Of a DNA stretch of 21,651 nt, positions 2,661-20,455 are shown piece by piece. The notes beneath the pieces were generated by a model that was not told where the DNA came from, searched no databases, and worked only from the letters and a program-made list of their open reading frames with translations. Made by a program: the position numbers and the translations under genes. This stretch comes from a virus (lineage: Duplodnaviria > Heunggongvirae > Uroviricota > Caudoviricetes): the IMG/VR virus record IMGVR_UViG_2896595138_000003. One strand, given 5' to 3'. Numbering within the stretch: position 1 is the stretch's first letter; each line of letters begins with the position of its first letter.

Positions 2661-3812
2661 TCAGTAATACACACCGTCAACGTTATCCGCTGAGTTACGG
2701 CCGGTATCCGATATCGCCATCCCTGACAGCCCGTGTCCCGAAGGTGCGCAAAATCTCCACGAAACGGTGTTACTGCCGGGGCTGTAATACATTTCATGGC
2801 CATACCGTACATCCTGTACCCCCTCTGTTCGATATTTATAGCGGGCATCGAAGTTTCCGTAATTTAACGGAATTACCTGTCCGTTAACAGTGAACACTAT
2901 GCTATTATCCGGGTTTCTCTGGCTGAAAAAATGCCAGCCTGAATCATCAACAAGCTCTGCAACAACAGGCCTGGATGGATTACCCCACAAACAAAACGCT
3001 GCATTTTTCGTGGAGTTGTTGGCGCTGGATAACGTGAATTTTCTGGCAGTTCCGGCCTGAATATTCTTAAAAGCAATAGCCACGCCATTCTGAAAACGAA
3101 ATACATGCTGTCCATTAGCATAAACATCCAGCAGACCATCGCCATTTTGTTTAAACCCGGTATCGTTATCTCCTAAAACGATTGAACTTCCACCTAACGC
3201 ATTCGTCGTACCAATTCCAAGACAACCATTAATGACGGCATTAACCAGAATATTTAGTGTATCCCATTTGAGATTCATCAGGTCTTTAACCCGGCCGCCA
3301 GCGAGGCGGTGTCTCCATTTGAAATATTCATTACCGTTATCCGCCGTTTCAAACCACATGTAGGAATCGGTGTCTGCATCCGAATCATTTTTAAATCCAA
3401 TCTTCGCCCAGTCAGTATTCCGAATCCAGGCGAGGATTGAGTCGTTTTCAAAAGTAAGTCCACCGGACAAGGTATCGCCTTCCTGATGAACATAGCGTTG
3501 ATCTGACTGCTCTTTACTGTAAACCTGAAGATTATCCCGTGCCGTCCCTTTATTCTGAAGGTCTGACAGATTGTTCTTCTGCCGCAGGAATATCCTTTTC
3601 GGATCCTCAAGAAGATTTACCCAGCCCGCACTGTCGGAGCCTTCAGGATCGGTCAGGTTATCGTCTGTGGTATTCAGCCAGACCGCTGTTGTTGCGACTC
3701 CGGCGAGAATGGCTCCTTTTGCATATCCACCAATGGCCCCCGCAAAACCGGCATTATACGTGTACAAACCGCCAGCTTGGGCGAACCGTATTGCTGCGGT
3801 AATATCGTACAT
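2661..3812 (-). CDS. Phage tail-fibre protein (P2 gpH-like distal region), 383 aa
   Basis: Contains motifs typical of enterobacterial myovirus tail fibres ([50 protein letters not shown]); has its own ATG with an AAGGA ribosome-binding site; the frame stays open upstream to the IS110 boundary. Confidence 0.8.
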
Positions 3813-3844
3813 CAGACCGTTAAAATCCTTGCCGTGTGGCGGTA

Positions 3845-4073
3845 CCCCGTTACTTTATTCGTACCCTTATAATGGGGTGTTAGCCAGCCAGACCCGGCAT
3901 GATTACTGCCCCAGTCGTCCATGATCCGGGGGGGGATGTCACCGGGTCTGGTGGGGCGCTGGTAACCGCTAATAGGGGTCAGGTCAGGCACTTTTGCCGG
4001 GACCGTCTGTAACGTGGATGCCGGTACCTGCTCCCCGTGGTTATCTGGTTAACCCATATACAAGGGAGACAGA
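3845..4073 (+). ncRNA. Candidate IS110-type bridge (guide) RNA in the 5' non-coding leader
   Basis: Established knowledge that IS110-group elements encode a bridge RNA in the left-end leader; the leader here is 229 bp, GC-rich with self-complementary segments, and contains a TATAAT at 3868-3873; not verified by structure or model search. Confidence 0.35.
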
Positions 4074-5270
4074 ATGACCGAATCCAGCGATTACGAATCC
4101 GTCCAGGTCTTTATCGGCGTTGATGTCGGTAAAGATACGCATCACGCTGTTGCCATTAATCGTTCAGGTAAACGCCTGTTCGATAAAGCATTACCCAACG
4201 ACGAAAACAAACTCAGGTCGCTAATATCTGACCTGAAACAACATGGTCAGATACTGCTGGTTGTTGATCAGCCAGCTACCATCGGTGCGTTACCTGTCGC
4301 CGTTGCCCGCTCAGAAGGAGTCCTTGTCGGATACCTCCCTGGACTGGCCATGCGCCGCATAGCCGACTTACACGCCGGTGAAGCTAAAACTGATGCTCGT
4401 GACGCTGCCATCATTGCCGAAGCTGCCCGTACCCTGCCTCACGCGCTACGCACGCTGAAACTGGCTGACGAGCAAATCGCCGAACTCTCCATGCTCTGCG
4501 GCTTCGATGATGATCTTGCCGCACAGACAACGCAGGCCAGCAACCGTCTCCGCGGCCTTCTGACCCAGATACATCCGGCACTGGAGCGCGTTCTCGGTCC
4601 GAGACTTGAGTACCCGGCGGTACTCGATCTTCTCCAGCGATATCCCTCACCAGAAAAACTCGCTTCGCTGGGTGAGAAGAAGCTGGCAGCCCAGCTCTGC
4701 AAACTTGCGCCTCGTCTGGGTAAACGCCTTGCAGCAGACATAGCTCAGGCACTGGCCGAACAAACCGTCGTCGTTCCCGGCACGAATGCCGCTGCCGTAG
4801 TACTGCCACGTCTGGCACTCCAGCTCATCACGCTGCGTAAGCAAAGAGACGAGGTGGCGCTTGAGGTAGAACAGCGAGTTCTTGCTCACCCTCTTTACCC
4901 GGTCCTGACCAGTATGCCCGGAGTCGGTGTCAGGACCGCAGCCAGACTCCTCACCGAGGTCGCCTGCCGCGCCTTCGTCTCTGCCGCACATCTCGCTGCT
5001 TATGCTGGCCTTGCGCCGGTAACTCGGCGATCCGGCTCGTCAATACGCGGTGAGCATCCCTCGCGACGGGGTAATAAAGCTCTCAAACGGGCGTTGTTCC
5101 TGTCGGCCTTCGCCGCGCTCAGGGATCCGCTCTCCAGGGCTTACTACACCCGCAAAATGAGTCAGGGAAAACGACACAATCAGGCGCTTATCGCCCTGGC
5201 GAGACGACGCTGCGACGTTCTGTTCGCCATGATGCGCGACGGGACTTTTTATACCCCGCAGGGGTCATAA
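4074..5270 (+). CDS. IS110-family transposase/recombinase (DEDD RuvC-like N-terminus, IS116/IS110/IS902-type C-terminus), 398 aa
   Basis: N-terminal IGVDVGKDTHHAVAI motif and C-terminal MPGVGVRTAARLL helix-hairpin-helix region. Confidence 0.9.
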   Translation: MTESSDYESVQVFIGVDVGKDTHHAVAINRSGKRLFDKALPNDENKLRSLISDLKQHGQILLVVDQPATIGALPVAVARSEGVLVGYLPGLAMRRIADLHAGEAKTDARDAAIIAEAARTLPHALRTLKLADEQIAELSMLCGFDDDLAAQTTQASNRLRGLLTQIHPALERVLGPRLEYPAVLDLLQRYPSPEKLASLGEKKLAAQLCKLAPRLGKRLAADIAQALAEQTVVVPGTNAAAVVLPRLALQLITLRKQRDEVALEVEQRVLAHPLYPVLTSMPGVGVRTAARLLTEVACRAFVSAAHLAAYAGLAPVTRRSGSSIRGEHPSRRGNKALKRALFLSAFAALRDPLSRAYYTRKMSQGKRHNQALIALARRRCDVLFAMMRDGTFYTPQGS

Positions 5271-5442
5271 CATGCTTGACAACTTAATAGGGGCCCCCCG
5301 CTGAGACCGCTGTCATGGTCGTCGGAGGAAAACCTGAATCATACGCAGCATTACCGCTCTCTCTGGTCTACTGTGTCGCCTTGTCCGGGATACGGTTTTT
5401 ATCTCCGGTACTCGCAAAGGGGACCGCCAGCTGGCGGGTTTA

Positions 5443-6047
5443 TCACTGGCCTTCATTACGGGACTCCTTTAAAACTACTGAAACATAAACACCCGGCGGG
5501 GACGGCAGTGCACCCGACGACTGGATAATCGCCAGTTCTGCCGACGAGAGCGCGGACTCAAAGACGTAACTCATCCTCAGCCCGCCATTATTCAGAACAT
5601 AAGCCCGCCGTTTTTTTCCGAACATAAACCTCAGCATCCGGTTAATATCTGGAACGGAACAGTCAGTAATATTCGACATGGCTTTCATCAGGATCAGTCG
5701 CCGGTATATGGCATCAGTCAGGTCAACAGTCCGGGTAACCGATTTTCCGTTGTAAAACGGTGCCTGATTAAACGGGCGGGAATCATCCATTACCGGGGTG
5801 TCCATCCTAGACTCGCTGAAGCCCAGGTAATTAAAATCGTCCTTTACCGTCAGCCGGCGACTGACACCCACAATCTTTCCCCAGACATCAAGACCATACT
5901 TTTCTGCGGTATCGATGTTCCAGATAAGACCATAAAAATCACTGATAAAACTGTCGGGGAGAGCGCTGCGTTAAAGCTGTTAATGAGGGCATTGAGTCGG
6001 GAGCTGGCAGCATACTGCGCAAGCACAGTGGCAGCCACATTCTGCAC
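5443..6047 (-). pseudogene. Phage tail/baseplate protein at the gpI position, frame-disrupted (ORFs 5850..6047 and 5443..5871)
   Basis: Lies between the J-like gene and the tail fibre; two overlapping ORFs in different frames; no recognised motif. Confidence 0.35.
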
Positions 6048-6048
6048 G

Positions 6049-7284
6049 TTATGCCTCCTGGAGTTTCACACTGATATCCGACACATCCAGAACCGAAATC
6101 TCATCTATCCCGAAAGTGACAGCCGTTGTCCATGACGAACCGTCACGGCTCACAGTAAGGCCCAGAATATCAATATGTTCCGGATCGGTTTTGTAAATGC
6201 CGGCATAGTAGCGCCCGGCAGAGACAACAGAGGCAACTCTTGCCCGCAGACCACCATCTGTACCATTAAATGCGTCCAGCACGGATTGCTGTACCTGTCG
6301 GGTAATATCTGAAGGCAGGTAGTCACTTTTTTTCAGCGTCACACTGACATGCAGACTGACGGGTTTGAGTGTCTGCCAGCTGATCACGTATTCAGGATAC
6401 GGCGGATCGTACTCCTTATCTGCAACAGTGAACGTTGTGTTGCCATTCATATCAATACCCGGCGGAGCCTTACGCCAGATGGCCGCCGCGATATCTGCCG
6501 GGCTGCCGCCGTACACGCCAACATAAAGCGAACCGGGTGTTAATGGATACTGACTGACTCCGGCTTTTTGTTCTGTTTTTTTCGGATTATGGGTGACGTA
6601 AACATCCACCACGTTTTCTACCGTGGAGAGTATTTCACCCCGGATGGCTTCCAGAATATTCCGGGCATTACGGGCAACTGAATTACGTCGGCGGTTTTCA
6701 AAGTCCGCACGGGTTTCCTCATCGCTGCCCGGCACACCGGCACGGGCGTTAGTGACACCTGACCAGCCAGGTATTGCCTTATAAATTTTATTCAGCGTCC
6801 CCACAGGACAGCCGACGGGCCGGTGGACAAATTCAGAAATACCGCATCAACCTGCCCTGATGCGCCGATAGTGACGTCTGACTGACATACTTATAACCGG
6901 CCTCATCCTGCGCCATACTGCCCGCCGGGATCAGCGTGCCAACCAGCCCGGTACAGGTCGCTGTTACTGTCGTACCTGTGGCCCCACGGCGCTCCAGGAA
7001 ATAAATCCTGCCTATTGCATCCTGAAAGCGACCACTGGAAAAGTCAGGGTTGATCTGGTTAACGATATACAGCAACTGATCGTTTTTATCCGCAATAATG
7101 GCGCTTTCGCTGGATGCAAGTTGTCCCTGCGGACTGCTCAGACTGGTACTCATGGCCCGCCCAGCGCCGCCGAAAAATCAGCAAGCCTGCCGCTCAGAAT
7201 ATCCGCTTCATCCGGCACATTCAGCCCGCTATCCGAAATCTGTACAGCGGGCACTGCGGTAGAAAAAGATTTATTTTCACTCAT
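6049..7284 (-). pseudogene. Baseplate assembly protein J-like (Mu gp47 / P2 gpJ family), frame-disrupted in two places
   Basis: Three consecutive ORFs (7151..7284, 6833..7153, 6049..6804); the first ATG overlaps the stop of the upstream gene (ATGA), consistent with one ancestral gene of about 410 aa. Confidence 0.6.
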
Positions 7285-7636
7285 AGCAGTACCGTAAAAA
7301 TGTCATTATTGGTATCTGTAATACGCAGCACACCTGTTACTGTCCGGGTTTGATCAGCTGTGACCTGGCAGACAGCGGCGCTCACGGTCGGCAGTTTAAG
7401 TGCTTCCTGTTGCAGAGTGGCATTCACCAGTTGTGTGCCGGGCCAGTGTCCGAGGATGCGTGGCCAGTAAGGTATGCCAGCCGTTGAGTCGTACCAGCAC
7501 TCCCCAGAAAAGTACTGCACGCACACGCCACATCCTGAGCTACCGCATGGGGATTATCAGTAATGGCAAGATTTCCGGTATCATCAAGCAGGATATCCCA
7601 TGTCCCGGTGTCAAGAAGAAGTGATCGTGACTGCAT
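7281..7636 (-). pseudogene. Baseplate protein W-like (gp25/gpW-sized, about 118 aa), frame-disrupted
   Basis: Size and position between the V-like and J-like genes; two overlapping ORFs (7424..7636, 7281..7526). Confidence 0.35.
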
Positions 7637-7648
7637 GTTTTCTCCTGT

Positions 7649-8325
7649 TTACCGGGGTCCCTGCGTGGTTGAGCCGCCGGACTCAACGCCGCCGTGAACG
7701 TGGTTTCCAAAATCAATACCCCCGATGTTCGAACCGCCGGAAAGCCTGGACTGCCCGGTAACGTTAAGCCCCTTACTGACGGCGGTATCGCCGTTCAGCG
7801 CAATTTGTGGTGAGTTAACGGTGAAGCTTTTCGGCGCATTAATCACACCCTCAGGCGCAGATATCTCCACTTTCCAGGGAGATACAATCCGTATCTGGTT
7901 GTCATCAAATACCACAAACTGGACGGGATCACCGTTGAGCACACCACCCAGCCAGATGGCATCAGCATAATTATGGGTACGCTTTGATCCCGGCATCGCA
8001 GCCTGACGCGTGGCTTTTACCGCACTGATATCCCGATCGCAGATGGCAAGAAAACCGATATCCCCCACATGTGGCGGCATAATCACCGCATTACCGCCCC
8101 CTGTAGTCGCCATACGGGAATGTTATAAATCACCTCATGTTCAACCGGGGAACCGTCTGCTGCAACGCCCATTACCATCGGTCGGGCCTCAATAAATCCC
8201 TCTTCCACGGCTACCACCCGTCCCAGAGTGATAAACGCATGACGTCCGAGAAACTGCCGCAGCATAAAGTCCTGTGCATTGATTTCGCTGTTCACGTCTG
8301 TCGGGTTACTGAGTGGTTGTGCCAT
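7649..8325 (-). pseudogene. Baseplate assembly protein V (spike), frame-disrupted by a 1-bp change in a G-run near 8100-8106
   Basis: C-terminal Gly-rich HxH region (GGIDFGNHVHGGVESGGSTTQG) resembles P2 gpV; restoring one G in the run joins ORFs 8083..8325 and 7649..8113. Confidence 0.7.
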
Positions 8326-8424
8326 TTTCTTCAGCCCTCATCATGGTACAGTTGGAACTCCACGGACCGCCCACGGTTCGCGAAGTAATGGTGTGTATCA
8401 CCCCTATGATCGTATAATCGCCCG

Positions 8425-9173
8425 TCATATCAGGCAGTGACGATTCCAGATGCGCTGGCCTGCCAGTAAAGAGATCGGGCAGAATATCGTGGTGGCGCTG
8501 AGTCCGGTCATGGTGTAAACCGGATAGCCAGTCAGTCCGTGATCCGGCGAAATCAGTACCGGCGGAATATTCCGGTTCTGCCCTTTCGGCCAGATGGTGA
8601 CTTTCTCCACATTCCCCAGATCAATGTTAATATCGGCGGCTGAAGCGACATCCAGCATTTGTTGTACAACATTACCGGAAAAATGCGGGTCAGACAGACT
8701 GCGGCTGCCCCCTGGTTTTCAAATCCAAGCCCGACAGTTGACGCCAGCGCACGGATAATATCTGCAACCGCAACATCGCCCTTTGCGCTGAAACCTGCCG
8801 CCGGCTGATTACGCAGATTAAAATGAATCTGTCCTGTCAGAATGAGCGGAATATCCGGCGCCTGGTTGTAGTCGGCGTATGCATCAGTAATATCACCTTC
8901 AAAAATAAGCCGCCCGTCGGCCCACAGCCGCATTTTATTTGCGGTACTCTGCTCCTGTCGCCACACACCGCGCCAGCTTAAATTCGTCATATGCGCCGGT
9001 GACATTCCCCAGATATACAGCGTGATTTGTGTACCAGCCACCCCTCCATATCCGGCAATACTGGCAAAACAGCTTGCGTCGGTAATGGTCAGCATATTGC
9101 CCTGGCCATTACCAAACGTTCGTCCGTCTGAAAGAGTGAACTCCACCGTTATTTTACGTTGTCTGTAGCTCAT
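8425..9173 (-). pseudogene. Phage tail/baseplate protein upstream of gpV (hub-like?), frame-disrupted
   Basis: Real N-terminus with a GAGGAA ribosome-binding site before the ATG at 9173; frame lost after about 155 codons and continued by ORF 8425..8658; family not recognised. The 216 bp between 9174 and the IS66 end holds the 3' tail of a further tail gene cut by IS66. Confidence 0.35.
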
Positions 9174-9389
9174 ATCAGTTCCTCAGGTAACAGCCAGTAG
9201 AGCCGGTATCGGGATCCGAGCCCCGCCAGTCAGGGTCACTATTCCCCTCCGTGTCGGTAAAAAACAGGTCCCCTGAAACGGCAGGTATCCGTACCGGACA
9301 ATCCGGTTATTATTCAGACACAGCACGCCATACAGGCACGGTTCACCATTAACAATGATATCGATATACATCCCGTAGTACGCTGATTC

Positions 9390-10439
9390 GTAAGCGCCCG
9401 AGAAGTACGTAGCGTAAGGATTATTTTACAGACGAGAAGTTCCAGGGCAGCAGTTCATGCACTTGGTTCGACGGCCAGTCATTGAGCTTCTCGATCACTT
9501 CGCGCAACCAGTCCTCCGGCTCCACTTCGTTCTGTTTGCAGGTGACCAGCAGACTGTAGATGATCGCCGCACTTTCTCCTCCCTTGTCTGAGCCGAAAAA
9601 GAGATAATTTTTTCTTCCAACCGCCACCGATCGTAACGCGTTTTCACCGATGTTGTTGTCTATTTCCACCCAGCCGTCACGACAGAACTCGTTCAGCGCA
9701 TTCCAGTGATTCAGGATATAGTCGAACGCCTTCGCCATCTCCGCATGTTTCGACAGCGTTTTCCTCTGCAACTGTATCCAGTCGTACAACGACTGCATCA
9801 ACTGGACGCTTCTGGCTTTTCTGACTGCAAGCCGTTCCTCTGCCGGACTGCCACGTATCTCCGCTTCTATGTCGTATAACTCTGCTATCCGTCTGAGCGC
9901 TTCCTGAGTCATTTCTGTCGGACGGCGCACATCCTCGTCATGGATTTTTCGGCGGGCGTGGGCCAGGCACCCGGCTTCCTTCACCCGGCCCGTTTCGTAC
10001 AGTACGTTATAACCTGCATAGGCATCAGCCTGCAGTACGCCCTGATACTTTGCCAGGTGGAGCTGCGGATGTTCTCCTTTGCGATCTGCCGAATACGCGA
10101 ACCAGACGGCTGCCGGCAGGGATGAACCCGCATTACGATCATCCCTGACGTATACCCACAGACGACCCGTTTTCGTCTTTCCGTTCCCCGGGCCAGTACT
10201 TTCACCGGAGTGTCATCTGCGTGCACCTTTCCTGCCTCCAGAACATAGTCATTCAGCGCTATATACAGAGGACGGAGTTTGTCTGCCATTTCTGATACCC
10301 AGCGCACCATGGTATTACGGCTCAGCTCCACGCCCTGTCGCGCGTATATTTCTGACTGGCGATATAAAGGGATATGTTCCATATATTTGCTGACCAGGAT
10401 CCGTGCAAGTAACCCTGCACTGGCATAACCGCGTTCGAT
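9390..10439 (-). mobile_element. IS66-family element, right-end fragment (terminal GTAAGCG-type repeat plus 3' part of tnpC), cut by IS600 copy A
   Basis: Terminal sequence GTAAGCGCCCGAGAAGTACGTAGCGTAAG at 9391-9419 adjoins the tnpC stop; IS66-family ends characteristically begin GTAAGCG. Confidence 0.7.
9421..10439 (-). pseudogene. IS66-family transposase TnpC, 5'-truncated by IS600 and frameshifted (GGG to GG near 10180)
   Basis: Contains [10 protein letters not shown] and LPWN-type TnpC motifs; frames of ORFs 9421..9984 and 9981..10577 join if one G is restored. Confidence 0.8.
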
Positions 10440-10482
10440 TGAGGTGTACTGGCAATAGCGGACACTACCATTTGTTCTTTTT

Positions 10483-11300
10483 TTAAGCAGCCATCTGATG
10501 ATATTTTTCCCTGAAGGCTGCCGGGGAGATATTCCCCAGACGAGAGTGACGACGCTGACGATTGTAGAAAATCTCAATGTATTCCCGTATTACTGAGATG
10601 GCTTCATCCCGGTTATTAAAACGATAGTGGCTCAGGCTCTCATTTTTCAGCGTTCCCCAGAAGCTTTCCATCGGAGCGTTGTCGTAACAGTTACCTTTAC
10701 ACGACATTGATGTTTTCAGACCAAACTGCTCCTGTATGACCGGTAATCGTATGCGCAGTACTGTGAACCTCGATCAGAGTGGTGGATTAGCCCGGCAGGT
10801 GGGCGCTGGCTCCTGAGCGCCATAAACAGGGCTTTACCTGTCAGCTCTTTTGTCATGCGCTCTCCCATGGCGTAGCCGACAATTTCGCACGTATAAACAT
10901 CTTTGATGCCAGCGAGGTACAACCATCCCTCCTGTGTGGCAACATACGTCAGGTCCGCCACCCAGACCTGATTTGGTGCTGTAGGAGCGAACGTCTGGTT
11001 CAGCAGATTTGGCGCAACTGGCAGATTGTGGTTCGGGTTCGTAGTCGCTCTGAACTTGCGTTTCTGCTTACAGCGTAGCCTTAGCTCCTTACGAAGACGT
11101 GCCAGTCGGTCACGACCAACGATGATGCCATTCTCTGCCAGCTCCGTCTGGAGCCGCCGGGTTCCATATGTTTCGCGAGTGCGGATATGTGCCACCTTAA
11201 TCTCCAGTTTTAGCCGCTCATCACTTTGTTTTCTGTCTGAGGGTTCATGCTGTACCCGGTTGTAATAACCGCTCCTGGATACACCAAATACCTGACACAT
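10483..11300 (-). pseudogene. IS600 OrfB transposase, frameshifted (1-bp deletion CCC to CC near 10740)
   Basis: Direct comparison with intact copies B and C: TGACCCGG there versus TGACCGG here. Confidence 0.8.
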
Positions 11301-11335
11301 CGCTTCAATGGGAAATTGTTGTCGCCATTGTTCGA

Positions 11336-11638
11336 TTAACGCGTATTTTTCAGCGACTCCTGTGCAAAATACGCTGTTGCTTTTTTTAATATATCTCGCT
11401 CAAGGCGAGCTTCATTTAACGCCTTACGCAGTTGCAGAATTTCAGATTCCAGTTCAGCCACCGTGCGGGAACCAGGAGTACCGAGCCCTTTTCTGGCGGC
11501 GGTAACCCATTGTCCTAAAGTGCCTTCAGGAAGGGATAATCGGGAAGCGCCTTCACTGATCGAAAGTTGATTTTCAAGAACCGTTCTGACAGCTTCGGCT
11601 TTGAACTCTTTAGAGTAACGTTGGGTTTTTCTGCTCAT
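11336..11638 (-). CDS. IS600 OrfA (IS3-family helix-turn-helix protein), 100 aa
   Basis: MSRKTQRYSKEFKAEAVRTV...; identical in copies A and C, one substitution in copy B. Confidence 0.85.
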   Translation of the reverse strand: MSRKTQRYSKEFKAEAVRTVLENQLSISEGASRLSLPEGTLGQWVTAARKGLGTPGSRTVAELESEILQLRKALNEARLERDILKKATAYFAQESLKNTR

Positions 11639-11858
11639 TATTAGCTCCTTCTGATGCCATTCTATTTCAGGAAGGAGTGTCCGTTAAACTCAGGCTACCT
11701 CAGGTCTTCCGACGATTCTGTCATTGTTCATTAAGCAAAAGTTTCCATGCTGTTTGTGCTTATTCTAAGCAACCGGGCAGCATCATACGGGGCAATTATG
11801 GCCGCATTACCATACATGCAACTGTACATAGCTGATTACCTGGCTGACACTGAAGTGG

Positions 11859-13392: not shown

Positions 13393-13890
13393 ATGAGCAG
13401 AGTCACCGCGATTATCTCCGCTCTGGTTATCTGCATCATCGTCTGCCTGTCATGGGCTGTTAATCATTACCGTGATAACACCATTACCTACAAAGAGCAG
13501 CGCGACAAAAACGCAAGAGAACTGAAGCTGGCGAACGCAACCATTACTGACATGCAGCAGCGCCAGCGTGCTGCTGATGCCCTCGATGCTAAATACACGA
13601 AGGAGTTAGCCAATGCGAAAGCTGAAAATGATGCTCTTCGGCGCAAGCTTGATAATGGTGGTCGGGTGCTCGTCAAAGGAAAATGCCCTGTGCCATCCTC
13701 AGCCGAAACCTCCAGCGCCTCCGGCATGGGCAATGATGCCACCGTCGAACTCTCTCCAGTTGCTGGACGAAACGTTCTCGGTATCCGGGACGGAATCATC
13801 AGCGACCAGACAGCATTGAGAATGCTTCAGGAGTACATCAGGATCCAATGCCTTGGGGGTGCCCCTATTAAGTTGTCAAGCATGTTATGA
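13393..13890 (+). CDS. Rz: Rz inner-membrane spanin; last 8 codons and the stop are supplied by the IS110 copy 2 end
   Basis: [29 protein letters not shown]...; ATGA overlap with the endolysin frame; ORF track start 13381 is an upstream alternative start. Confidence 0.8.
13613..13819 (+). CDS. Rz1: Rz1 outer-membrane lipoprotein spanin, embedded in the +1 frame of Rz, 68 aa
   Basis: Lipobox (LIMVVGC) followed by a Pro-rich segment ([16 protein letters not shown]), fully inside Rz. Confidence 0.8.
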
Positions 13891-15081
13891 CCCCTGCGGG
13901 GTATAAAAAGTCCCGTCGCGCATCATGGCGAACAGAACGTCGCAGCGTCGTCTCGCCAGGGCGATAAGCGCCTGATTGTGTCGTTTTCCCTGACTCATTT
14001 TGCGGGTGTAGTAAGCCCTGGAGAGCGGATCCCTGAGCGCGGCGAAGGCCGACAGGAACAACGCCCGTTTGAGAGCTTTATTACCCCGTCGCGAGGGATG
14101 CTCACCGCGTATTGACGAGCCGGATCGCCGAGTTACCGGCGCAAGGCCAGCATAAGCAGCGAGATGTGCGGCAGAGACGAAGGCGCGGCAGGCGACCTCG
14201 GTGAGGAGTCTGGCTGCGGTCCTGACACCGACTCCGGGCATACTGGTCAGGACCGGGTAAAGAGGGTGAGCAAGAACTCGCTGTTCTACCTCAAGCGCCA
14301 CCTCGTCTCTTTGCTTACGCAGCGTGATGAGCTGGAGTGCCAGACGTGGCAGTACTACGGCAGCGGCATTCGTGCCGGGAACGACGACGGTTTGTTCGGC
14401 CAGTGCCTGAGCTATGTCTGCTGCAAGGCGTTTACCCAGACGAGGCGCAAGTTTGCAGAGCTGGGCTGCCAGCTTCTTCTCACCCAGCGAAGCGAGTTTT
14501 TCTGGTGAGGGATATCGCTGGAGAAGATCGAGTACCGCCGGGTACTCAAGTCTCGGACCGAGAACGCGCTCCAGTGCCGGATGTATCTGGGTCAGAAGGC
14601 CGCGGATACGGTTGCTGGCCTGCGTTGTCTGTGCGGCAAGATCATCATCGAAGCCGCAGAGCATGGAGAGTTCGGCGATTTGCTCGTCAGCCAGTTTCAG
14701 CGTGCGTAGCGCGTGAGGCAGGGTACGGGCAGCTTCGGCAATGATGGCAGCGTCACGAGCATCAGTTTTAGCTTCACCGGCGTGTAAGTCGGCTATGCGG
14801 CGCATGGCCAGTCCAGGGAGGTATCCGACAAGGACTCCTTCTGAGCGGGCAACGGCGACAGGTAACGCACCGATGGTAGCTGGCTGATCAACAACCAGCA
14901 GTATCTGACCATGTTGTTTCAGGTCAGATATTAGCGACCTGAGTTTGTTTTCGTCGTTGGGTAATGCTTTATCGAACAGGCGTTTACCTGAACGATTAAT
15001 GGCAACAGCGTGATGCGTATCTTTACCGACATCAACGCCGATAAAGACCTAGACGGATTCGTAATCGCTGGATTCGGTCAT
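13885..15081 (-). pseudogene. IS110-family transposase, copy 2, with a TAG at codon 11 (CAG in copy 1)
   Basis: Direct comparison: GTCCAGGTC in copy 1 versus GTCTAGGTC in copy 2 (15049-15051 on the plus strand); otherwise one L-to-I substitution. Confidence 0.8.
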
Positions 15082-15311
15082 TCTGTCTCCCTTGTATATG
15101 GGTTAACCAGATAACCACGGGGAGCAGGTACCGGCATCCACGTTACAGACGGTCCCGGCAAAAGTGCCTGACCTGACCCCTATTAGCGGTTACCAGCGCC
15201 CCACCAGACCCGGTGACATCCCCCCCGGATCATGGACGACTGGGGGCAGTAATCATGCCGGGTCTGGCTGGCTAACACCCCATTATAAGGGGTACGAATA
15301 AAGTAACGGGG
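15082..15311 (-). ncRNA. Candidate IS110-type bridge (guide) RNA leader, copy 2
   Basis: Same leader as 3845-4073 but differs at three homopolymer runs (C4 vs C3, C5 vs C4, C7 vs C8). Confidence 0.3.
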
Positions 15312-16145: not shown

Positions 16146-16209
16146 TGAGGTAGCCTGAGTTTAACGGACACTCCTTCCTGAAATAGAATGGCATCAGAAG
16201 GAGCTAATA

Positions 16210-16512
16210 ATGAGCAGAAAAACCCAACGTTACTCTAAAGAGTTCAAAGCCGAAGCTGTCAGAACGGTTCCTGAAAATCAACTTTCGATCAGTGAAGGCG
16301 CTTCCCGATTATCCCTTCCTGAAGGCACTTTAGGACAATGGGTTACCGCCGCCAGAAAAGGGCTCGGTACTCCTGGTTCCCGCACGGTGGCTGAACTGGA
16401 ATCTGAAATTCTGCAACTGCGTAAGGCGTTAAATGAAGCTCGCCTTGAGCGAGATATATTAAAAAAAGCAACAGCGTATTTTGCACAGGAGTCGCTGAAA
16501 AATACGCGTTAA
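16210..16512 (+). CDS. IS600 OrfA, 100 aa
   Basis: One substitution relative to copies A and C (TVPENQ versus TVLENQ). Confidence 0.9.
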   Translation: MSRKTQRYSKEFKAEAVRTVPENQLSISEGASRLSLPEGTLGQWVTAARKGLGTPGSRTVAELESEILQLRKALNEARLERDILKKATAYFAQESLKNTR

Positions 16513-16547
16513 TCGAACAATGGCGACAACAATTTCCCATTGAAGCG

Positions 16548-17366
16548 ATGTGTCAGGTATTTGGTGTATCCAGGAGCGGTTATTACAACTGGGTACAGCA
16601 TGAACCCTCAGACAGAAAACAAAGTGATGAGCGGCTAAAACTGGAGATTAAGGTGGCACATATCCGCACTCGCGAAACATATGGAACCCGGCGGCTCCAG
16701 ACGGAGCTGGCAGAGAATGGCATCATCGTTGGTCGTGACCGACTGGCACGTCTTCGTAAGGAGCTAAGGCTACGCTGTAAGCAGAAACGCAAGTTCAGAG
16801 CGACTACGAACCCGAACCACAATCTGCCAGTTGCGCCAAATCTGCTGAACCAGACGTTCGCTCCTACAGCACCAAATCAGGTCTGGGTGGCGGACCTGAC
16901 GTATGTTGCCACACAGGAGGGATGGTTGTACCTCGCTGGCATCAAAGATGTTTATACGTGCGAAATTGTCGGCTACGCCATGGGAGCGCGCATGACAAAA
17001 GAGCTGACAGGTAAAGCCCTGTTTATGGCGCTCAGGAGCCAGCGCCCACCTGCCGGGCTAATCCACCACTCTGATCGAGGTTCACAGTACTGCGCATACG
17101 ATTACCGGGTCATACAGGAGCAGTTTGGTCTGAAAACATCAATGTCGCGTAAAGGTAACTGTTACGACAACGCTCCGATGGAAAGCTTCTGGGGAACGCT
17201 GAAAAATGAGAGCCTGAGCCACTATCGTTTTAATAACCGGGATGAAGCCATCTCAGTAATACGGGAATACATTGAGATTTTCTACAATCGTCAGCGTCGT
17301 CACTCTCGTCTGGGGAATATCTCCCCGGCAGCCTTCAGGGAAAAATATCATCAGATGGCTGCTTAA
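16548..17366 (+). CDS. IS600 OrfB transposase (DDE), 272 aa
   Basis: Intact ORF; IS3-family DDE transposase, normally expressed as an OrfAB fusion by -1 frameshifting. Confidence 0.9.
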   Translation: MCQVFGVSRSGYYNWVQHEPSDRKQSDERLKLEIKVAHIRTRETYGTRRLQTELAENGIIVGRDRLARLRKELRLRCKQKRKFRATTNPNHNLPVAPNLLNQTFAPTAPNQVWVADLTYVATQEGWLYLAGIKDVYTCEIVGYAMGARMTKELTGKALFMALRSQRPPAGLIHHSDRGSQYCAYDYRVIQEQFGLKTSMSRKGNCYDNAPMESFWGTLKNESLSHYRFNNRDEAISVIREYIEIFYNRQRRHSRLGNISPAAFREKYHQMAA

Positions 17367-17545
17367 AAAAAGAACAAATGGTAGTGTCCGCTATTGCCAG
17401 TACACCTCAGTGGTGAAATAAAACCGGGCACAACACGAAGGCGCATTTCCGGTATCCATAAAGAGTCGGTCTTGTCTGTTAAATTTAAATGGTGGGAGTG
17501 CGCCTCCGGTTGTAAATAACGACATTGCTGTGTGAAGTACCAGTT

Positions 17546-17752: not shown

Positions 17753-18397
17753 ATGTTGAATGTAGCTATTGAAAACCAGAACGGGTGGAATTATAGTGCA
17801 CCTGCACCTCATAAAACGGGTGCCGGGATTGCTACCCCGAAGTCATTCACGGCGCATAACCGCGCTCAGGCGGTTTTTTTATACGTAATGCACAGCCACA
17901 TTCAAATTATGGTGGGGCGTGCGGGGCAGTCGCAAGACTGGCCGGGTTCCGTGATGACCGGTTGTAGCAACCCTGTACGTCTCACCACCCATGAGATTGC
18001 TACCTCCGGTGGTGAGTTAATCAAATTCATCGCGGAGGCTGCCATCATGGCTACTACCCTTTCTCACCCTTGTGTAACCGTAGAAAACGGTCGCGCTGTC
18101 ACTACGTCTGTTGCGGTTGCAGAGTTCTTCCACAAACGACACGACAATGTGTTACGTGCCATCGCAAATATTGAATGCTCAGATAAATTTACTGCCCTCA
18201 ATTTTGAGGCGAGCGAATACACCGACTCAACCGGGCGCAAACTCCCAATGTACCAAATCACCAAAAACGGCTTCGTTTTCCTGGTTATGGGATTCACTGG
18301 CAAAAAAGCCGCTGCATTCAAAGAAGCCTACATTGCTGAGTTCGACCGCATGGAGGCCGAACTGCGCCAGAATAACCCCCACCTGCTGACAAGATGA
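17753..18397 (+). CDS. Rha-family phage regulatory protein (pRha domain in the C-terminal half); alternative start at ATG 18047 with a GGAGG site would give a 116-aa Rha-only protein
   Basis: Motif KRHDNVLRAIANI...GRKLPMYQITKNGFVFLVMGFTGKKAAAFKEAYIAEFDRME is typical of the pRha domain; the N-terminal 98 codons have no recognised similarity. Confidence 0.7.
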   Translation: MLNVAIENQNGWNYSAPAPHKTGAGIATPKSFTAHNRAQAVFLYVMHSHIQIMVGRAGQSQDWPGSVMTGCSNPVRLTTHEIATSGGELIKFIAEAAIMATTLSHPCVTVENGRAVTTSVAVAEFFHKRHDNVLRAIANIECSDKFTALNFEASEYTDSTGRKLPMYQITKNGFVFLVMGFTGKKAAAFKEAYIAEFDRMEAELRQNNPHLLTR

Positions 18398-19067: not shown

Positions 19068-19194
19068 CATGATTACCAGTTATGAAGCCACTGTTGTAAC
19101 TACTGATGACATTGTTCACGAGGTTAATCTGGAAGGAAAGCGTATTGGCTACGTGATTAAGACAGAAAATAAAGAAACCCCATTCACTGTGTGA
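19068..19194 (+). CDS. Small ORF (41 aa) whose stop codon is formed by the first bases of IS600 copy C; probably 3'-truncated
   Basis: AAGGAGAAAAAC then ATG; the TGA at 19192-19194 is the IS600 terminus TGAGG. Confidence 0.3.
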
Positions 19195-19234
19195 GGTGTA
19201 CTGGCAATAGCGGACACTACCATTTGTTCTTTTT

Positions 19235-20053
19235 TTAAGCAGCCATCTGATGATATTTTTCCCTGAAGGCTGCCGGGGAGATATTCCCCAGACGAGAGTG
19301 ACGACGCTGACGATTGTAGAAAATCTCAATGTATTCCCGTATTACTGAGATGGCTTCATCCCGGTTATTAAAACGATAGTGGCTCAGGCTCTCATTTTTC
19401 AGCGTTCCCCAGAAGCTTTCCATCGGAGCGTTGTCGTAACAGTTACCTTTACGCGACATTGATGTTTTCAGACCAAACTGCTCCTGTATGACCCGGTAAT
19501 CGTATGCGCAGTACTGTGAACCTCGATCAGAGTGGTGGATTAGCCCGGCAGGTGGGCGCTGGCTCCTGAGCGCCATAAACAGGGCTTTACCTGTCAGCTC
19601 TTTTGTCATGCGCTCTCCCATGGCGTAGCCGACAATTTCGCACGTATAAACATCTTTGATGCCAGCGAGGTACAACCATCCCTCCTGTGTGGCAACATAC
19701 GTCAGGTCCGCCACCCAGACCTGATTTGGTGCTGTAGGAGCGAACGTCTGGTTCAGCAGATTTGGCGCAACTGGCAGATTGTGGTTCGGGTTCGTAGTCG
19801 CTCTGAACTTGCGTTTCTGCTTACAGCGTAGCCTTAGCTCCTTACGAAGACGTGCCAGTCGGTCACGACCAACGATGATGCCATTCTCTGCCAGCTCCGT
19901 CTGGAGCCGCCGGGTTCCATATGTTTCGCGAGTGCGGATATGTGCCACCTTAATCTCCAGTTTTAGCCGCTCATCACTTTGTTTTCTGTCTGAGGGTTCA
20001 TGCTGTACCCAGTTGTAATAACCGCTCCTGGATACACCAAATACCTGACACAT
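19235..20053 (-). CDS. IS600 OrfB transposase, 272 aa
   Basis: Intact; differs from copy B at one residue (AMGERMTKE versus AMGARMTKE). Confidence 0.9.
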   Translation of the reverse strand: MCQVFGVSRSGYYNWVQHEPSDRKQSDERLKLEIKVAHIRTRETYGTRRLQTELAENGIIVGRDRLARLRKELRLRCKQKRKFRATTNPNHNLPVAPNLLNQTFAPTAPNQVWVADLTYVATQEGWLYLAGIKDVYTCEIVGYAMGERMTKELTGKALFMALRSQRPPAGLIHHSDRGSQYCAYDYRVIQEQFGLKTSMSRKGNCYDNAPMESFWGTLKNESLSHYRFNNRDEAISVIREYIEIFYNRQRRHSRLGNISPAAFREKYHQMAA

Positions 20054-20088
20054 CGCTTCAATGGGAAATTGTTGTCGCCATTGTTCGA

Positions 20089-20391
20089 TTAACGCGTATT
20101 TTTCAGCGACTCCTGTGCAAAATACGCTGTTGCTTTTTTTAATATATCTCGCTCAAGGCGAGCTTCATTTAACGCCTTACGCAGTTGCAGAATTTCAGAT
20201 TCCAGTTCAGCCACCGTGCGGGAACCAGGAGTACCGAGCCCTTTTCTGGCGGCGGTAACCCATTGTCCTAAAGTGCCTTCAGGAAGGGATAATCGGGAAG
20301 CGCCTTCACTGATCGAAAGTTGATTTTCAAGAACCGTTCTGACAGCTTCGGCTTTGAACTCTTTAGAGTAACGTTGGGTTTTTCTGCTCAT
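20089..20391 (-). CDS. IS600 OrfA, 100 aa
   Basis: Identical to copy A OrfA. Confidence 0.9.
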   Translation of the reverse strand: MSRKTQRYSKEFKAEAVRTVLENQLSISEGASRLSLPEGTLGQWVTAARKGLGTPGSRTVAELESEILQLRKALNEARLERDILKKATAYFAQESLKNTR

Positions 20392-20455
20392 TATTAGCTC
20401 CTTCTGATGCCATTCTATTTCAGGAAGGAGTGTCCGTTAAACTCAGGCTACCTCA

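What the first reader, a model, noticed from the sequence alone, without database searches (positions are those of the whole stretch)
3845..4073. IS110-family element with a 229-bp 5' leader: candidate bridge RNA, two copies at different targets
Two near-identical 1451-bp IS110-family copies (3845-5295 plus strand; 13861-15311 minus strand) have no terminal inverted repeats and no target-site duplications. Each has about 229 bp of non-coding leader before the DEDD recombinase and only about 25 bp after it. Established knowledge: IS110-group elements such as IS621 encode a bridge RNA in exactly this left-end leader, which base-pairs with both target and donor DNA. Seen in sequence: the two insertion sites (33 bp upstream of the tail-fibre ATG; last codons of Rz) both have a C5-C6 tract immediately to the right of the element. 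Inference: the leader encodes the guide RNA that specified these sites. The second leader copy is at 15082-15311.
Basis: partly seen in the sequence, partly recalled or inferred. Interest (0 to 1): 0.55.

Follow-up and report, generated by a model that had tools for sequence, protein, structure and literature searches.

The report
ISEc20 element encoding a bridge RNA
The two repeats are copies of the catalogued insertion sequence ISEc20/ISSfl4, and the leader before its recombinase gene encodes the family's "bridge RNA" guide, which pairs with the element's own ends and with poly-C insertion sites; the reading is correct, but it is an ordinary case that has already been predicted in print.

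Summary
Two about 99.5% identical IS110-family copies lie at 3848-5293 (+) and 13862-15308 (-). They are ISEc20/ISSfl4, found in 1460 of 5426 complete E. coli genomes. Durrant et al. 2024 (Suppl. Table 5) already list a bridge RNA in the left end of this IS cluster.

I tested the claim independently.
- A covariance model built only from 43 non-enterobacterial relatives hits both leaders at about 148-150 bits (E about 1e-30).
- The fold has a 5' hairpin and two stem-loops with internal loops; 25 of 44 pairs show compensatory changes.
- Loop 2 carries AUAGGGG, identical to the right-end terminus, and GUAACGUG, the complement of CA+CGTTAC at the left end.
- Loop 1 carries CUGCCCC(C)A and a G run. 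The G run complements the C tract that abuts the right end in both copies and in nearly all 49 related insertions examined.
- Guide variants covary with right ends or flanks in some relatives.

Corrections:
- Copy A interrupts the tail-protein gene at about codon 55; it does not lie upstream of it.
- Copy B's recombinase has a stop at codon 11.
- Both sites match the guides well only on their right half.

Transcription and activity were not testable. Novelty is low.

The parts
3846..3847 (+). Copy A, left copy of the 2-nt core (CC here; CA in the family's guide design)
   Evidence: The 2 nt before CGTTAC are CC in 44 of 49 related insertions.
3848..4073 (+). Copy A left end (LE, 226 nt), starting CGTTACTTT. 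It holds the -10-like hexamer TACTTT at 3851-3856.
   Evidence: Alignment of 8 ISEc20 copies and of 45 relatives. Junction promoter analysis.
3863..3878 (+). Bridge RNA 5' hairpin (ACCC-UUAUAAU-GGGGU). The stem is one C shorter than canonical.
   Evidence: Helix 1 has compensatory changes in 6 of 8 pairs.
3887..3952 (+). Stem-loop 2, the target-binding loop. Outer stem 3887-3897/3942-3952 and 3900-3903/3938-3941; inner hairpin 3914-3925.
   Evidence: helix 2: 99.1% paired, 7 compensatory pairs. Lies within CM hit 3880-4037.
3906..3913 (+). Left target guide, CUGCCCC+A here and CUGCCCC+CA in canonical copies. It has the same sense as the left target plus core.
   Evidence: Matches the empty rtcB site GACTGCCCCACCCCCC. 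Its variable bases track the flanks across relatives.
3928..3935 (+). Right target guide. G8 here, GGGGGGUG in canonical copies. Complement of core plus C tract.
   Evidence: The right flank is CA/CC plus a C run in most of the 49 insertions. The variant in L080 is compensated in its flank.
3954..4035 (+). Stem-loop 3, the donor-binding loop. Outer stem 3954-3968/4022-4035; inner hairpin 3982-4004.
   Evidence: Helix 4 is 97% paired with 8 compensatory pairs. Helices 5 and 6 are also supported.
3972..3980 (+). Left donor guide, AUAGGGG+UC. Identical to the last 7 nt of the right end.
   Evidence: TAATAGGGG occurs only at the two right ends and the two leaders (expected 0.06). ATAGGGA occurs in both guide and right end in six relatives from two host phyla.
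4009..4016 (+). Right donor guide, GUAACG+UG. Complement of CA+CGTTAC (core plus first 6 nt of LE).
   Evidence: Invariant in 45 relatives. Left junctions reading CACGTTAC occur in L027 and L087.
4074..5270 (+). Copy A recombinase gene, 398 aa, intact
   Evidence: Pfam PF01548 at 5.6e-49 and PF02371 at 9.4e-22. NCBIfam NF033542, 'IS110 family RNA-guided transposase', 237.8 bits.
5271..5293 (+). Copy A right end (RE, 23 nt). Holds the -35 hexamer TTGACA at 5276-5281 and the terminus ATAGGGG.
   Evidence: TTGAC[AG] is conserved in the right ends of relatives. Joined RE+CA+LE gives TTGACA-17-TACTTT.
5294..5299 (+). Copy A right core (CC, 5294-5295) and the C tract of the target's right half (5296-5299)
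15082..15308 (-). Copy B left end. Left core CC at 15309-15310.
15118..15275 (-). Copy B bridge RNA core (stem-loops 2 and 3). LTG 15241-15249, RTG 15220-15226 (G7), LDG 15175-15183, RDG 15139-15146. The 5' hairpin is at 15277-15293.
   Evidence: CM hit of 149.6 bits, E 1.6e-30. Motif coordinates.
13885..15081 (-). Copy B recombinase gene with a TAG stop at codon 11 (15049-15051); probable pseudogene
13862..13884 (-). Copy B right end (-35 TTGACA at 13874-13879). It is followed by core CA (13860-13861) and C5 (13855-13859).

Best explanation
Both repeats are copies of ISEc20/ISSfl4, a member of the IS110 group of the IS110 family. Its 226-nt left end encodes a bridge RNA of about 175 nt, running from roughly 3860 to 4037 in copy A.

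The RNA has a 5' hairpin followed by two stem-loops, each with an internal loop.
- The first loop is the target-binding loop. Its 5' side, CUGCCCC-CA, has the sense of the left target plus core. Its 3' side, GGGGGG-UG, complements the core plus a C tract.
- The second loop is the donor-binding loop. Its 5' side, AUAGGGG, equals the end of the right end. Its 3' side, GUAACG-UG, complements CA-CGTTAC, which is the core plus the start of the left end.

By analogy with IS621, the DEDD/Ser recombinase bound to this RNA would pair the circular junction ...ATAGGGG-CA-CGTTAC... with a target of the form (nCTG)CCCC-C[A/C]-CCCCCC and exchange strands at the 2-nt core.

A sigma-70-type promoter (TTGACA in the right end, 17 nt, TACTTT in the left end) exists only when the ends are joined. 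The RNA would therefore be made mainly from the excised or tandem form.

Shown here: identity of the element, the conserved fold with covariation, guide-to-end identity and complementarity, complementarity to the C tract, and guide-flank and guide-end covariation.

Inferred, not shown: transcription, protein binding, the exact core and crossover position, and that the present copies are active.
For: - Identity: megablast gives 99.6% identity to 'IS110-like element ISEc20', present in 1460 of 5426 E. coli genomes. Pfam and NCBIfam assign it to the IS110 family, the latter as an 'RNA-guided transposase'.
- Published prediction: Durrant et al. 2024 Suppl. Table 5 has the row 'ISSfl4 | Detected Bridge RNA End LE | IS110 | ISEc20;ISSfl4'.
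- Relatives: 80 related loci were fetched and 45 non-redundant leaders align.
- Structure counts: 95.1% of cells are paired, against 27-50% with slid partners. 25 of 44 pairs have compensatory changes, against 7-11 slid. The covariation score is 0.346, against 0.12 or less. None of 500 shuffles reached these values.
- Covariance model: R1, built without any enterobacterial sequence, hits 3880-4037 (+) at 148.1 bits and 15118-15275 (-) at 149.6 bits.
- Donor guides: TAATAGGGG is found only at the right ends and in the leaders. CACGTTAC is the complement of 4009-4016. ATAGGGA is present in both guide and right end in Duganella and Herbiconiux elements.
- Right target guide: right flanks begin CA or CC followed by a C run in most of the 49 distinct insertions. 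In L080 the guide GGGGUGUG faces the flank CACACCCC.
- Left target guide: the empty rtcB site is GACTGCCCCACCCCCC. The variable bases of this guide match the cognate flanks better than permuted ones, p about 1e-4 overall and 0.0016 when stratified by host group.
- Promoter: the junction promoter is conserved across the family.
- Architecture: the fold matches the IS621 description.
Against: - No transcript, binding or recombination data exist for this element or its clade in the searchable literature.
- Rfam 15 gives no hit at either threshold.
- The recombinase is only 33% identical to IS621 over 116 C-terminal residues, so the mechanism is carried over from a distant relative.
- The left half of site A matches the left target guide at only about 3-4 of 9 positions.
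- The flanks of both window copies differ from relatives' empty sites by 1-3 bases near the core.
- Length bookkeeping at four sites is off by -1, -1, -1 and +2.
- The integrated copy A has no promoter-like site by the tool's criteria. The junction -10 hexamer TACTTT matches the consensus at only 3 of 6 positions.
- Copy B's recombinase is truncated, and homopolymer lengths in the window's guides look unreliable.
Confidence: 0.9

Rival explanations
1. The leader is only a cis-acting 5' region. It would supply half of the junction promoter and a structured UTR that controls recombinase translation, and target choice would be made by the protein alone.
For: The -10-like hexamer lies in the left end. 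In minimum-free-energy folds the 3' strand of stem-loop 3 can pair with the Shine-Dalgarno region. The z-score of the single-sequence fold is modest, -2.0 to -2.2.
Against: A UTR role does not explain four observations:
- Loop 2 repeats the right-end terminus exactly and complements the left-end start.
- A G-to-A change in that loop is mirrored in the right end in two host phyla.
- Loop 1 complements the flanking C tract in almost all insertions.
- The invariant segments are the unpaired ones, while the stems vary with compensation.
For IS621 the RNA is required for recombination in vitro.
Confidence: 0.04
2. The RNA gene is real, but these two copies are decaying relics. On this view their positions were not set by full guide-target matching. 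They would be half-match (right-half only) insertions, or would reflect later rearrangement, and the present guide sequences did not specify them.
For: - Copy B has a stop at codon 11.
- Copy A has G8 in place of GGGGGGUG, and both copies are short by a base in several homopolymers.
- Site A matches the left target guide poorly, and the flanks differ from relatives' empty sites.
- The surrounding prophage is riddled with IS600 copies and pseudogenes.
- Half-match insertion is documented for IS621.
Against: Both right halves match the right target guide at 7-8 of 8 positions. The left junction of site B matches the left target guide region well. The G8 variant also occurs in L014 and L038, so it is a real allele. 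This reading refines the main explanation rather than replacing it.
Confidence: 0.35
3. The match between the G run in the leader and the C tracts at the junctions is a by-product of poly-C/poly-G slippage or assembly error at the element's ends, not of guide pairing.
For: Poly-C tracts at these sites vary between strains: C7 against C16-G-C6, and CCCCACCCCCC against CCCCGCCC. The window shows several one-base homopolymer shortfalls.
Against: The C tract is present in empty sites before insertion. It is seen in independent assemblies from three phyla. The interrupted variant in L080 is mirrored base for base.
Confidence: 0.02

Closest known systems
ISEc20 / ISSfl4 (named insertion sequences, IS110 family; names as used by NCBI annotation and in Durrant et al. 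2024 Suppl. Table 5)
   Same: The window copies are this element. They are 99.3-99.6% identical over the full length to copies annotated 'IS110-like element ISEc20 family transposase'. Suppl. Table 5 of Durrant et al. 2024 records a bridge RNA detected in the left end for this cluster.
   Different: Copy A carries the G8 allele of the right target guide and an Ile-to-Leu change. Copy B has Q11stop. Several homopolymers are one base short. I found no paper in the library that describes the guides, the core or the poly-C target of this element.
IS621 bridge RNA (Durrant et al. 2024; Hiraizumi et al. 2024)
   Same: - The RNA sits in the left end, with a 5' hairpin and two stem-loops with internal loops.
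- The 5' sides of the loops have the sense of the left target or left donor (7 nt plus core). The 3' sides complement the core plus the right target or right donor.
- Loop 1 is variable and loop 2 is conserved.
- The promoter is split across the RE-LE junction.
- RNA length is about 175-180 nt.
   Different: - The recombinase is only 33% identical, and only over the C-terminal domain.
- The core is C-A/C rather than C-T. Here the first core position is constant and the second varies, the reverse of IS621.
- The target is a poly-C tract rather than a REP element.
- The right target guide and right donor guide each span 8 contiguous nt.
- The two target guides (a C run and a G run) are complementary to each other.
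IS110 of Streptomyces coelicolor and actinobacterial relatives (ISAar2/17, ISSer1, ISSgr1)
   Same: They fall in the same protein cluster in a supplementary table of Durrant et al. 2024 (their supplementary file 4). Relatives 73-81% identical, with alignable leaders, occur in Microbacteriaceae and Burkholderiales.
   Different: Their hosts differ. Their RNAs were not examined individually here, apart from the loci fetched.
IS1111-group elements (also called seekRNA elements)
   Same: They have a DEDD/Ser recombinase and an RNA guide with target and donor segments.
   Different: In IS1111 elements the guide lies in the long right end and there are subterminal inverted repeats. Here the left end is long (226 nt) and the right end short (23 nt).

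Membership tests
IS110 family, IS110 group insertion sequence | [quoted passage not shown] | tested here: met
   E 5.6e-49 over residues 14-168, covering the full profile.
IS110 family, IS110 group insertion sequence | C-terminal Tnp domain (PF02371) with the conserved catalytic Ser | tested here: met
   E 9.4e-22. SGSS aligns with the SGSS of IS621 in BLASTP. PDB matches to IS621 and ISCro4 transposases cover residues 276-392.
IS110 family, IS110 group insertion sequence | Long left non-coding end, short right end, no long terminal inverted repeats, no target duplication beyond a 2-nt core | tested here: met
   LE is 226 nt and RE 23 nt. The ends are not inverted repeats, judged by eye.
IS110 family, IS110 group insertion sequence | Sequence-specific insertion | tested here: met
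   49 distinct insertions share the junctions ...CC-CGTTAC and ATAGGGR-CA/CC, in most cases followed by a C run.
Bridge RNA (IS110-type guide RNA) | [quoted passage not shown] | tested here: met
   RNAalifold. Pair counts with controls. A CM built from distant relatives hits both copies.
Bridge RNA (IS110-type guide RNA) | Match to the published IS621-derived covariance model | not tested
   That model is not available here. Durrant et al. report detection in the left end for ISSfl4/ISEc20. Rfam 15 returned no relevant hit.
Bridge RNA (IS110-type guide RNA) | Second loop pairs with the donor: 5' side equals RE end plus core (bottom-strand pairing), 3' side complements core plus LE start | tested here: met
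   AUAGGGG equals the RE terminus, and 9 nt are identical in ISEc20. GUAACGUG complements CACGTTAC. G-to-A covariation is seen in six relatives from two host phyla. As in IS621, the second core position of the left donor guide is not matched.
Bridge RNA (IS110-type guide RNA) | First loop pairs with the target: 5' side equals left target plus core, 3' side complements core plus right target | tested here: met
   The right half is strongly supported (compensated variant in L080). The left half is supported by the empty rtcB site and by permutation tests. For the two window sites the left half matches only weakly (A) or moderately (B).
Bridge RNA (IS110-type guide RNA) | Promoter reconstituted across the RE-LE junction | tested here: inconclusive
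   TTGAC[AG]-17/18-TAC[TC][TA]T is conserved in reconstructed junctions, but the -10 is weak (3-4 of 6). No natural circle junction was recovered. The tandem arrays have a 5-6 nt spacer.
Bridge RNA (IS110-type guide RNA) | Transcribed, bound by the recombinase and required for recombination | not testable with these tools
   No expression or biochemical data are available.

The most novel reading that the evidence does not exclude
The ISEc20 clade may be a natural test case for how bridge recombination proceeds in vivo.

Its guides specify a CA core, but most targets are plain C runs with a CC core. The origin of each junction's core can therefore be read from the sequence. In 49 distinct insertions from three phyla, the left junction carries CC and the right junction CA in 37 cases. 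The reciprocal pattern (left CA, right CC) was never seen.

A two-strand exchange with a 2-nt stagger, followed by replication, should give both patterns equally. The bias fits top-strand-only insertion completed by replication, as proposed from experiments in 2025-2026 preprints.

In addition, the left and right target guides are homopolymeric and complementary to each other. This may allow the register to slip within poly-C tracts, and may allow repeated insertion into the same tract. Tandem arrays of two and at least three copies exist in E. coli SMN152SH1 and SMN197SH3.
Probability: 0.35. Interest if true: 0.4.

Novelty: already known. Interest (0 to 1): 0.2.

Why it matters
For annotating this window it matters little. 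It is a named insertion sequence with the RNA guide expected of its family, sitting in a decayed Shigella/EIEC-type prophage.

The work does add a base-level guide map for the ISEc20/ISSfl4 clade, which I did not find in the searchable literature:
- core C-A/C;
- target (CTG)CCCC-CA-CCCCCC;
- donor junction ATAGGGG-CA-CGTTAC.

This map explains why the element is found next to poly-C tracts, why it has a low copy number in E. coli, and why it forms tandem arrays. The clade is also widespread and naturally varied across Enterobacteria, Burkholderiales and Microbacteriaceae. Its mismatched donor and target cores leave a readable footprint of which strand is transferred.

Tried and rejected
- Rfam at both gathering and E-value thresholds gave only chance hits in the element.
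- Searching the supplements of Durrant et al. for the guide sequences themselves found nothing. Only the table row naming ISSfl4/ISEc20 was found.
- My first model had the element starting at CCCCGTTAC with a CC or CT core. I dropped it once the right ends of relatives showed ATAGGGG-CA-C6 and both 3'-side guides were seen to end in UG.
- My first permutation test used a faulty flank-trimming rule and was redone (then).
- A metagenome scan for RE-N(1-6)-LE junctions of the Burkholderia-type element returned four unrelated chance matches.
- A search for RE-LE junctions in E. coli found tandem arrays with 5-6 nt spacers (CACCCC or CCCCC), not circle junctions. The donor junction is therefore still inferred.
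- Exact reconstruction of the crossover from occupied and empty site pairs failed. Poly-C lengths differ between strains and the counts are off by -1, -1, -1 and +2.
- Promoter scans of integrated copy A and of the L013 junction found nothing at the tool's thresholds.
- The prophage backbone has no close match in the phage collection.

Full report
OBSERVATION

The window holds two inverted copies of a 1.45-kb element. Each has one long ORF. In copy A this is 4074-5270 (+), 398 aa. The product has the DEDD_Tnp_IS110 domain (PF01548, 5.6e-49) and the Transposase_20 domain (PF02371, 9.4e-22). It also scores 237.8 bits against NCBIfam NF033542, 'IS110 family RNA-guided transposase'.

The copies differ at seven positions:
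- three one-base length differences in C or G runs of the leader;
- C/T at 4104, which turns Gln11 into a stop in copy B;
- C/A at 4548;
- C/A just outside the right end.

A C tract abuts the right end of both copies. The motif C[AC]CCCC occupies 17 of 43302 positions in the window, so two such junctions by chance have a probability of about 1.5e-7.

IDENTITY

Megablast against complete E. coli genomes gives 99.3-99.6% identity over the full length to copies annotated 'IS110-like element ISEc20 family transposase'. These occur in 1460 of 5426 genomes, with a median of one copy.

In Durrant et al. 2024 (PMC11208160), Supplementary Table 5 has the row 'ISSfl4 | Detected Bridge RNA End: LE | IS110 | clustered elements ISEc20;ISSfl4'. 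The element is therefore catalogued, and a left-end bridge RNA has been predicted for it by a covariance model in print. I found no paper that describes its guides, core or target.

INDEPENDENT TEST OF THE RNA

A scan of one genome per species returned 80 loci. These comprise ISEc20/ISSfl4 copies in Shigella flexneri and transposases 73-81% identical in Burkholderiales, Microbacteriaceae and others. Their leaders align throughout. I kept 45 non-redundant leaders.

RNAalifold gives a 5' hairpin and two long stem-loops, each with a large internal loop and a small inner hairpin. I then left the loop segments unpaired and counted pairs.

| Measure | Named structure | Partners slid 1-3 columns |
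|---|---|---|
| Cells forming a standard pair | 95.1% | 27-50% |
| Pairs with a compensatory change | 25 of 44 | 7-11 |
| Covariation score | 0.346 | 0.12 or less |

None of 500 shuffles reached the observed values.

A covariance model built from 43 relatives, with no enterobacterial sequence, hits the window at 3880-4037 (+) with 148.1 bits and at 15118-15275 (-) with 149.6 bits, E about 1e-30. The only other matches are weak antisense echoes at the same places.

The architecture matches the published description for IS621-type bridge RNAs: a 5' stem-loop, then two stem-loops with internal loops, the first loop variable and the second conserved.

GUIDES

The invariant, unpaired segments are the informative ones. 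In canonical ISEc20 they read as follows.

Loop 2, the donor-binding loop:
- The 5' side contains AUAGGGG, identical to the last 7 nt of the right end. In ISEc20 nine bases, TAATAGGGG, are shared. This 9-mer occurs in the window only at the two right ends and the two leaders, against an expected 0.06.
- The 3' side contains GUAACGUG, the exact complement of CA+CGTTAC. CGTTAC is the start of the left end, and the segment is invariant in all 45 relatives.
- In four Duganella elements, a Rugamonas element and a Herbiconiux element, the guide reads AUAGGGA and the right end also ends ATAGGGA. This is a covariation between the RNA and the donor.

Loop 1, the target-binding loop:
- The 5' side is CUGCCCC-CA.
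- The 3' side is GGGGGG-UG, the complement of CA-CCCCCC.
- In 49 distinct insertions with both junctions readable, the right flank begins CA in 42 and CC in 6, followed in most cases by a C run.
- In L080 the guide variant GGGGUGUG faces the flank CACACCCC.
- An empty allele of the rtcB site used by ISEc20 in E. coli reads GACTGCCCCACCCCCCTCGAG. This is the designed target apart from one C.
- The three or four variable bases at the 5' end of the left guide match the bases upstream of the C run in the cognate left flank better than permuted pairs do. For three bases the score is 92 against 73.2 +/- 4.75 (p about 1e-4). When stratified by host group, p is 0.0016. Host composition could still inflate this somewhat.

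Both 3'-side guides end in UG and the left target guide ends in CA. I therefore place the core at C-A, the donor junction at ATAGGGG-CA-CGTTAC and the target at (nCTG)CCCC-CA-CCCCCC. This follows the IS621 rule that all guides include the core. As in IS621, the left donor guide does not match the second core base.

PROMOTER

All relatives keep TTGAC[AG] 12-13 nt before the end of the right end, and TAC[TC][TA]T starts 3 nt into the left end. Joined through CA, these form a sigma-70-type promoter with a 17-18 nt spacer. In ISEc20 it reads TTGACA-17-TACTTT.

The -10 is weak, and the tool's stricter rule finds no promoter in integrated copy A. This fits the IS621 picture: a promoter rebuilt on excision and only weak expression from integrated loci. 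It remains a consensus-level inference.

THE TWO SITES IN THE WINDOW

Empty sites exist in EIEC-like E. coli.

Site B reads AAATTACCGC-TA-CCCCCC-AAGG. The CTA is the complement of the lysis (Rz-like) gene's TAG stop codon. The right half matches the right target guide at 7-8 of 8 positions. The left half matches at about 5 of 7.

Site A lies inside the tail-protein gene. Intact homologues read ...TAVSAG|GIPPHGKDF at about codon 55. The right half of site A matches at 7 of 8 positions and the left half is poor.

Both insertions therefore look like right-half matches. Half-match insertion is documented for IS621.

The flanks do not reassemble exactly into the relatives' empty sites. At site A, T, A and T are replaced by C. 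At site B, T is replaced by C and one C is missing. At four sites, the C counts are off by -1, -1, -1 and +2 from what a CAC donor junction predicts.

Poly-C tracts at these sites vary between strains: C7 against C16-G-C6, and CCCCACCCCCC against CCCCGCCC. The window itself is one base short in several homopolymers relative to canonical copies and to an intact homologue. I could not resolve the exact crossover.

STATE OF THE COPIES

Copy A has an intact recombinase and the G8 allele of the right target guide. This allele also occurs in S. flexneri L014 and in an Enterobacterales MAG, L038. Copy B's recombinase stops at codon 11. Its RNA region and ends are intact, so it could only move with help in trans.

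MECHANISTIC SIDE RESULT

Across the 49 insertions, the left and right cores are distributed as follows.

| Left core / right core | Insertions |
|---|---|
| CC / CA | 37 |
| CC / CC | 6 |
| CT / CA | 2 |
| CA / CA | 2 |
| GC / CA | 1 |
| CC / TA (L043; its right end is probably mis-assigned) | 1 |
| CA / CC | 0 |

If both strands were exchanged across a 2-nt stagger and the heteroduplex were then replicated, CC/CA and CA/CC should be equally common. The one-sided pattern is what top-strand insertion followed by replication would leave. This model was proposed experimentally for another IS110 element and for IS621. An alternative is that CA is simply never exchanged.

E. coli SMN197SH3 and SMN152SH1 carry tandem arrays of at least three and of two ISEc20 copies, separated by CACCCC or CCCCC. 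This is as expected if the C tract left on the right of a copy remains a usable half-site.

VERDICT

The thing itself is a known insertion sequence with a guide RNA that has already been predicted. The mechanism is inferred by analogy from a recombinase only 33% identical to IS621 in its C-terminal domain. No expression or activity data exist for this clade.

Noticed in passing
window 10440-11702 (-), 16146-17409 (+), 19192-20455 (-): Three copies of IS600 (IS3 family, 1264 bp, 99.8% identical to annotated IS600). The orfA and orfB frames of the middle copy match the IS3 transposase model.
   Followed up: partly
window 17753-18397: Rfam hits to isrK (17804-17880, 64.8 bits) and C4 antisense RNA (17905-17992, 79 bits) lie inside the mechanical ORF 17753-18397, whose C-terminal part (residues 106-207) matches a Rha-family phage regulator. 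This is an immI-like immunity module of the kind I recall from P1/P7, lying between two IS600 copies.
   Followed up: no
window 5296-5470 (-) and 2661-3844 (-): Besides the IS insertion, the tail-protein gene has a frameshift after MKASDKP (C4 in relatives, C3 here) and an in-frame stop (ATQ*TRE). Several differences from relatives are one-base shortfalls in C or G runs, so homopolymer lengths in this assembly are doubtful.
   Followed up: partly
L017-L088: Transposases 73-81% identical to ISEc20, with fully alignable left ends, occur in Burkholderiales (Paraburkholderia, Duganella, Trinickia, Cupriavidus) and in Actinobacteria (Microbacterium, Cryobacterium, Leucobacter). This suggests spread of one IS clade across phyla.
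   Followed up: partly
L013 and L015 about 2020-2050; L051 about 2010-2040: In S. flexneri SFBU1023, 'E. coli' ECMA0423 and Cupriavidus laharis, the right end is followed by CA+CGTTAC..., which resembles the element's own left-end start. No second bridge RNA follows. This may be a donor-like half-site or a remnant of a tandem copy.
   Followed up: partly
L097 (E. coli SMN197SH3 chromosome) and L098 (plasmid pO177B1 of SMN152SH1): Head-to-tail tandem arrays of at least three and of two full ISEc20 copies, with a period of 1452-1453 bp. The junctions read ATAGGGG-CACCCC-GTTAC or ATAGGGG-CCCCC-GTTAC.
   Followed up: partly
L091 versus L092 (terD-upstream site); L089 versus L090 (rtcB site): The poly-C target tracts are polymorphic between strains: C7 against C16-G-C6, and CCCCGCCC against CCCCACCCCCC. 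They may be hypervariable tracts, or possibly footprints of earlier insertion and excision.
   Followed up: no
window 4028-4067: In minimum-free-energy folds, the 3' strand of stem-loop 3 (CUGCUCCCC) can alternatively pair with the recombinase Shine-Dalgarno region (AAGGGAG). This may link the RNA fold to translation.
   Followed up: no
window 5300-10400: The prophage backbone between the two ISEc20 copies has no close DNA match among 50,697 phage records. The only hit covers 7% of the query at 73.6% identity. Empty-site homologues occur in only 9 of 5426 E. coli genomes for site A and 6 for site B; several of these genomes also carry plasmids of 260-297 kb that hold ISEc20 copies.
   Followed up: no
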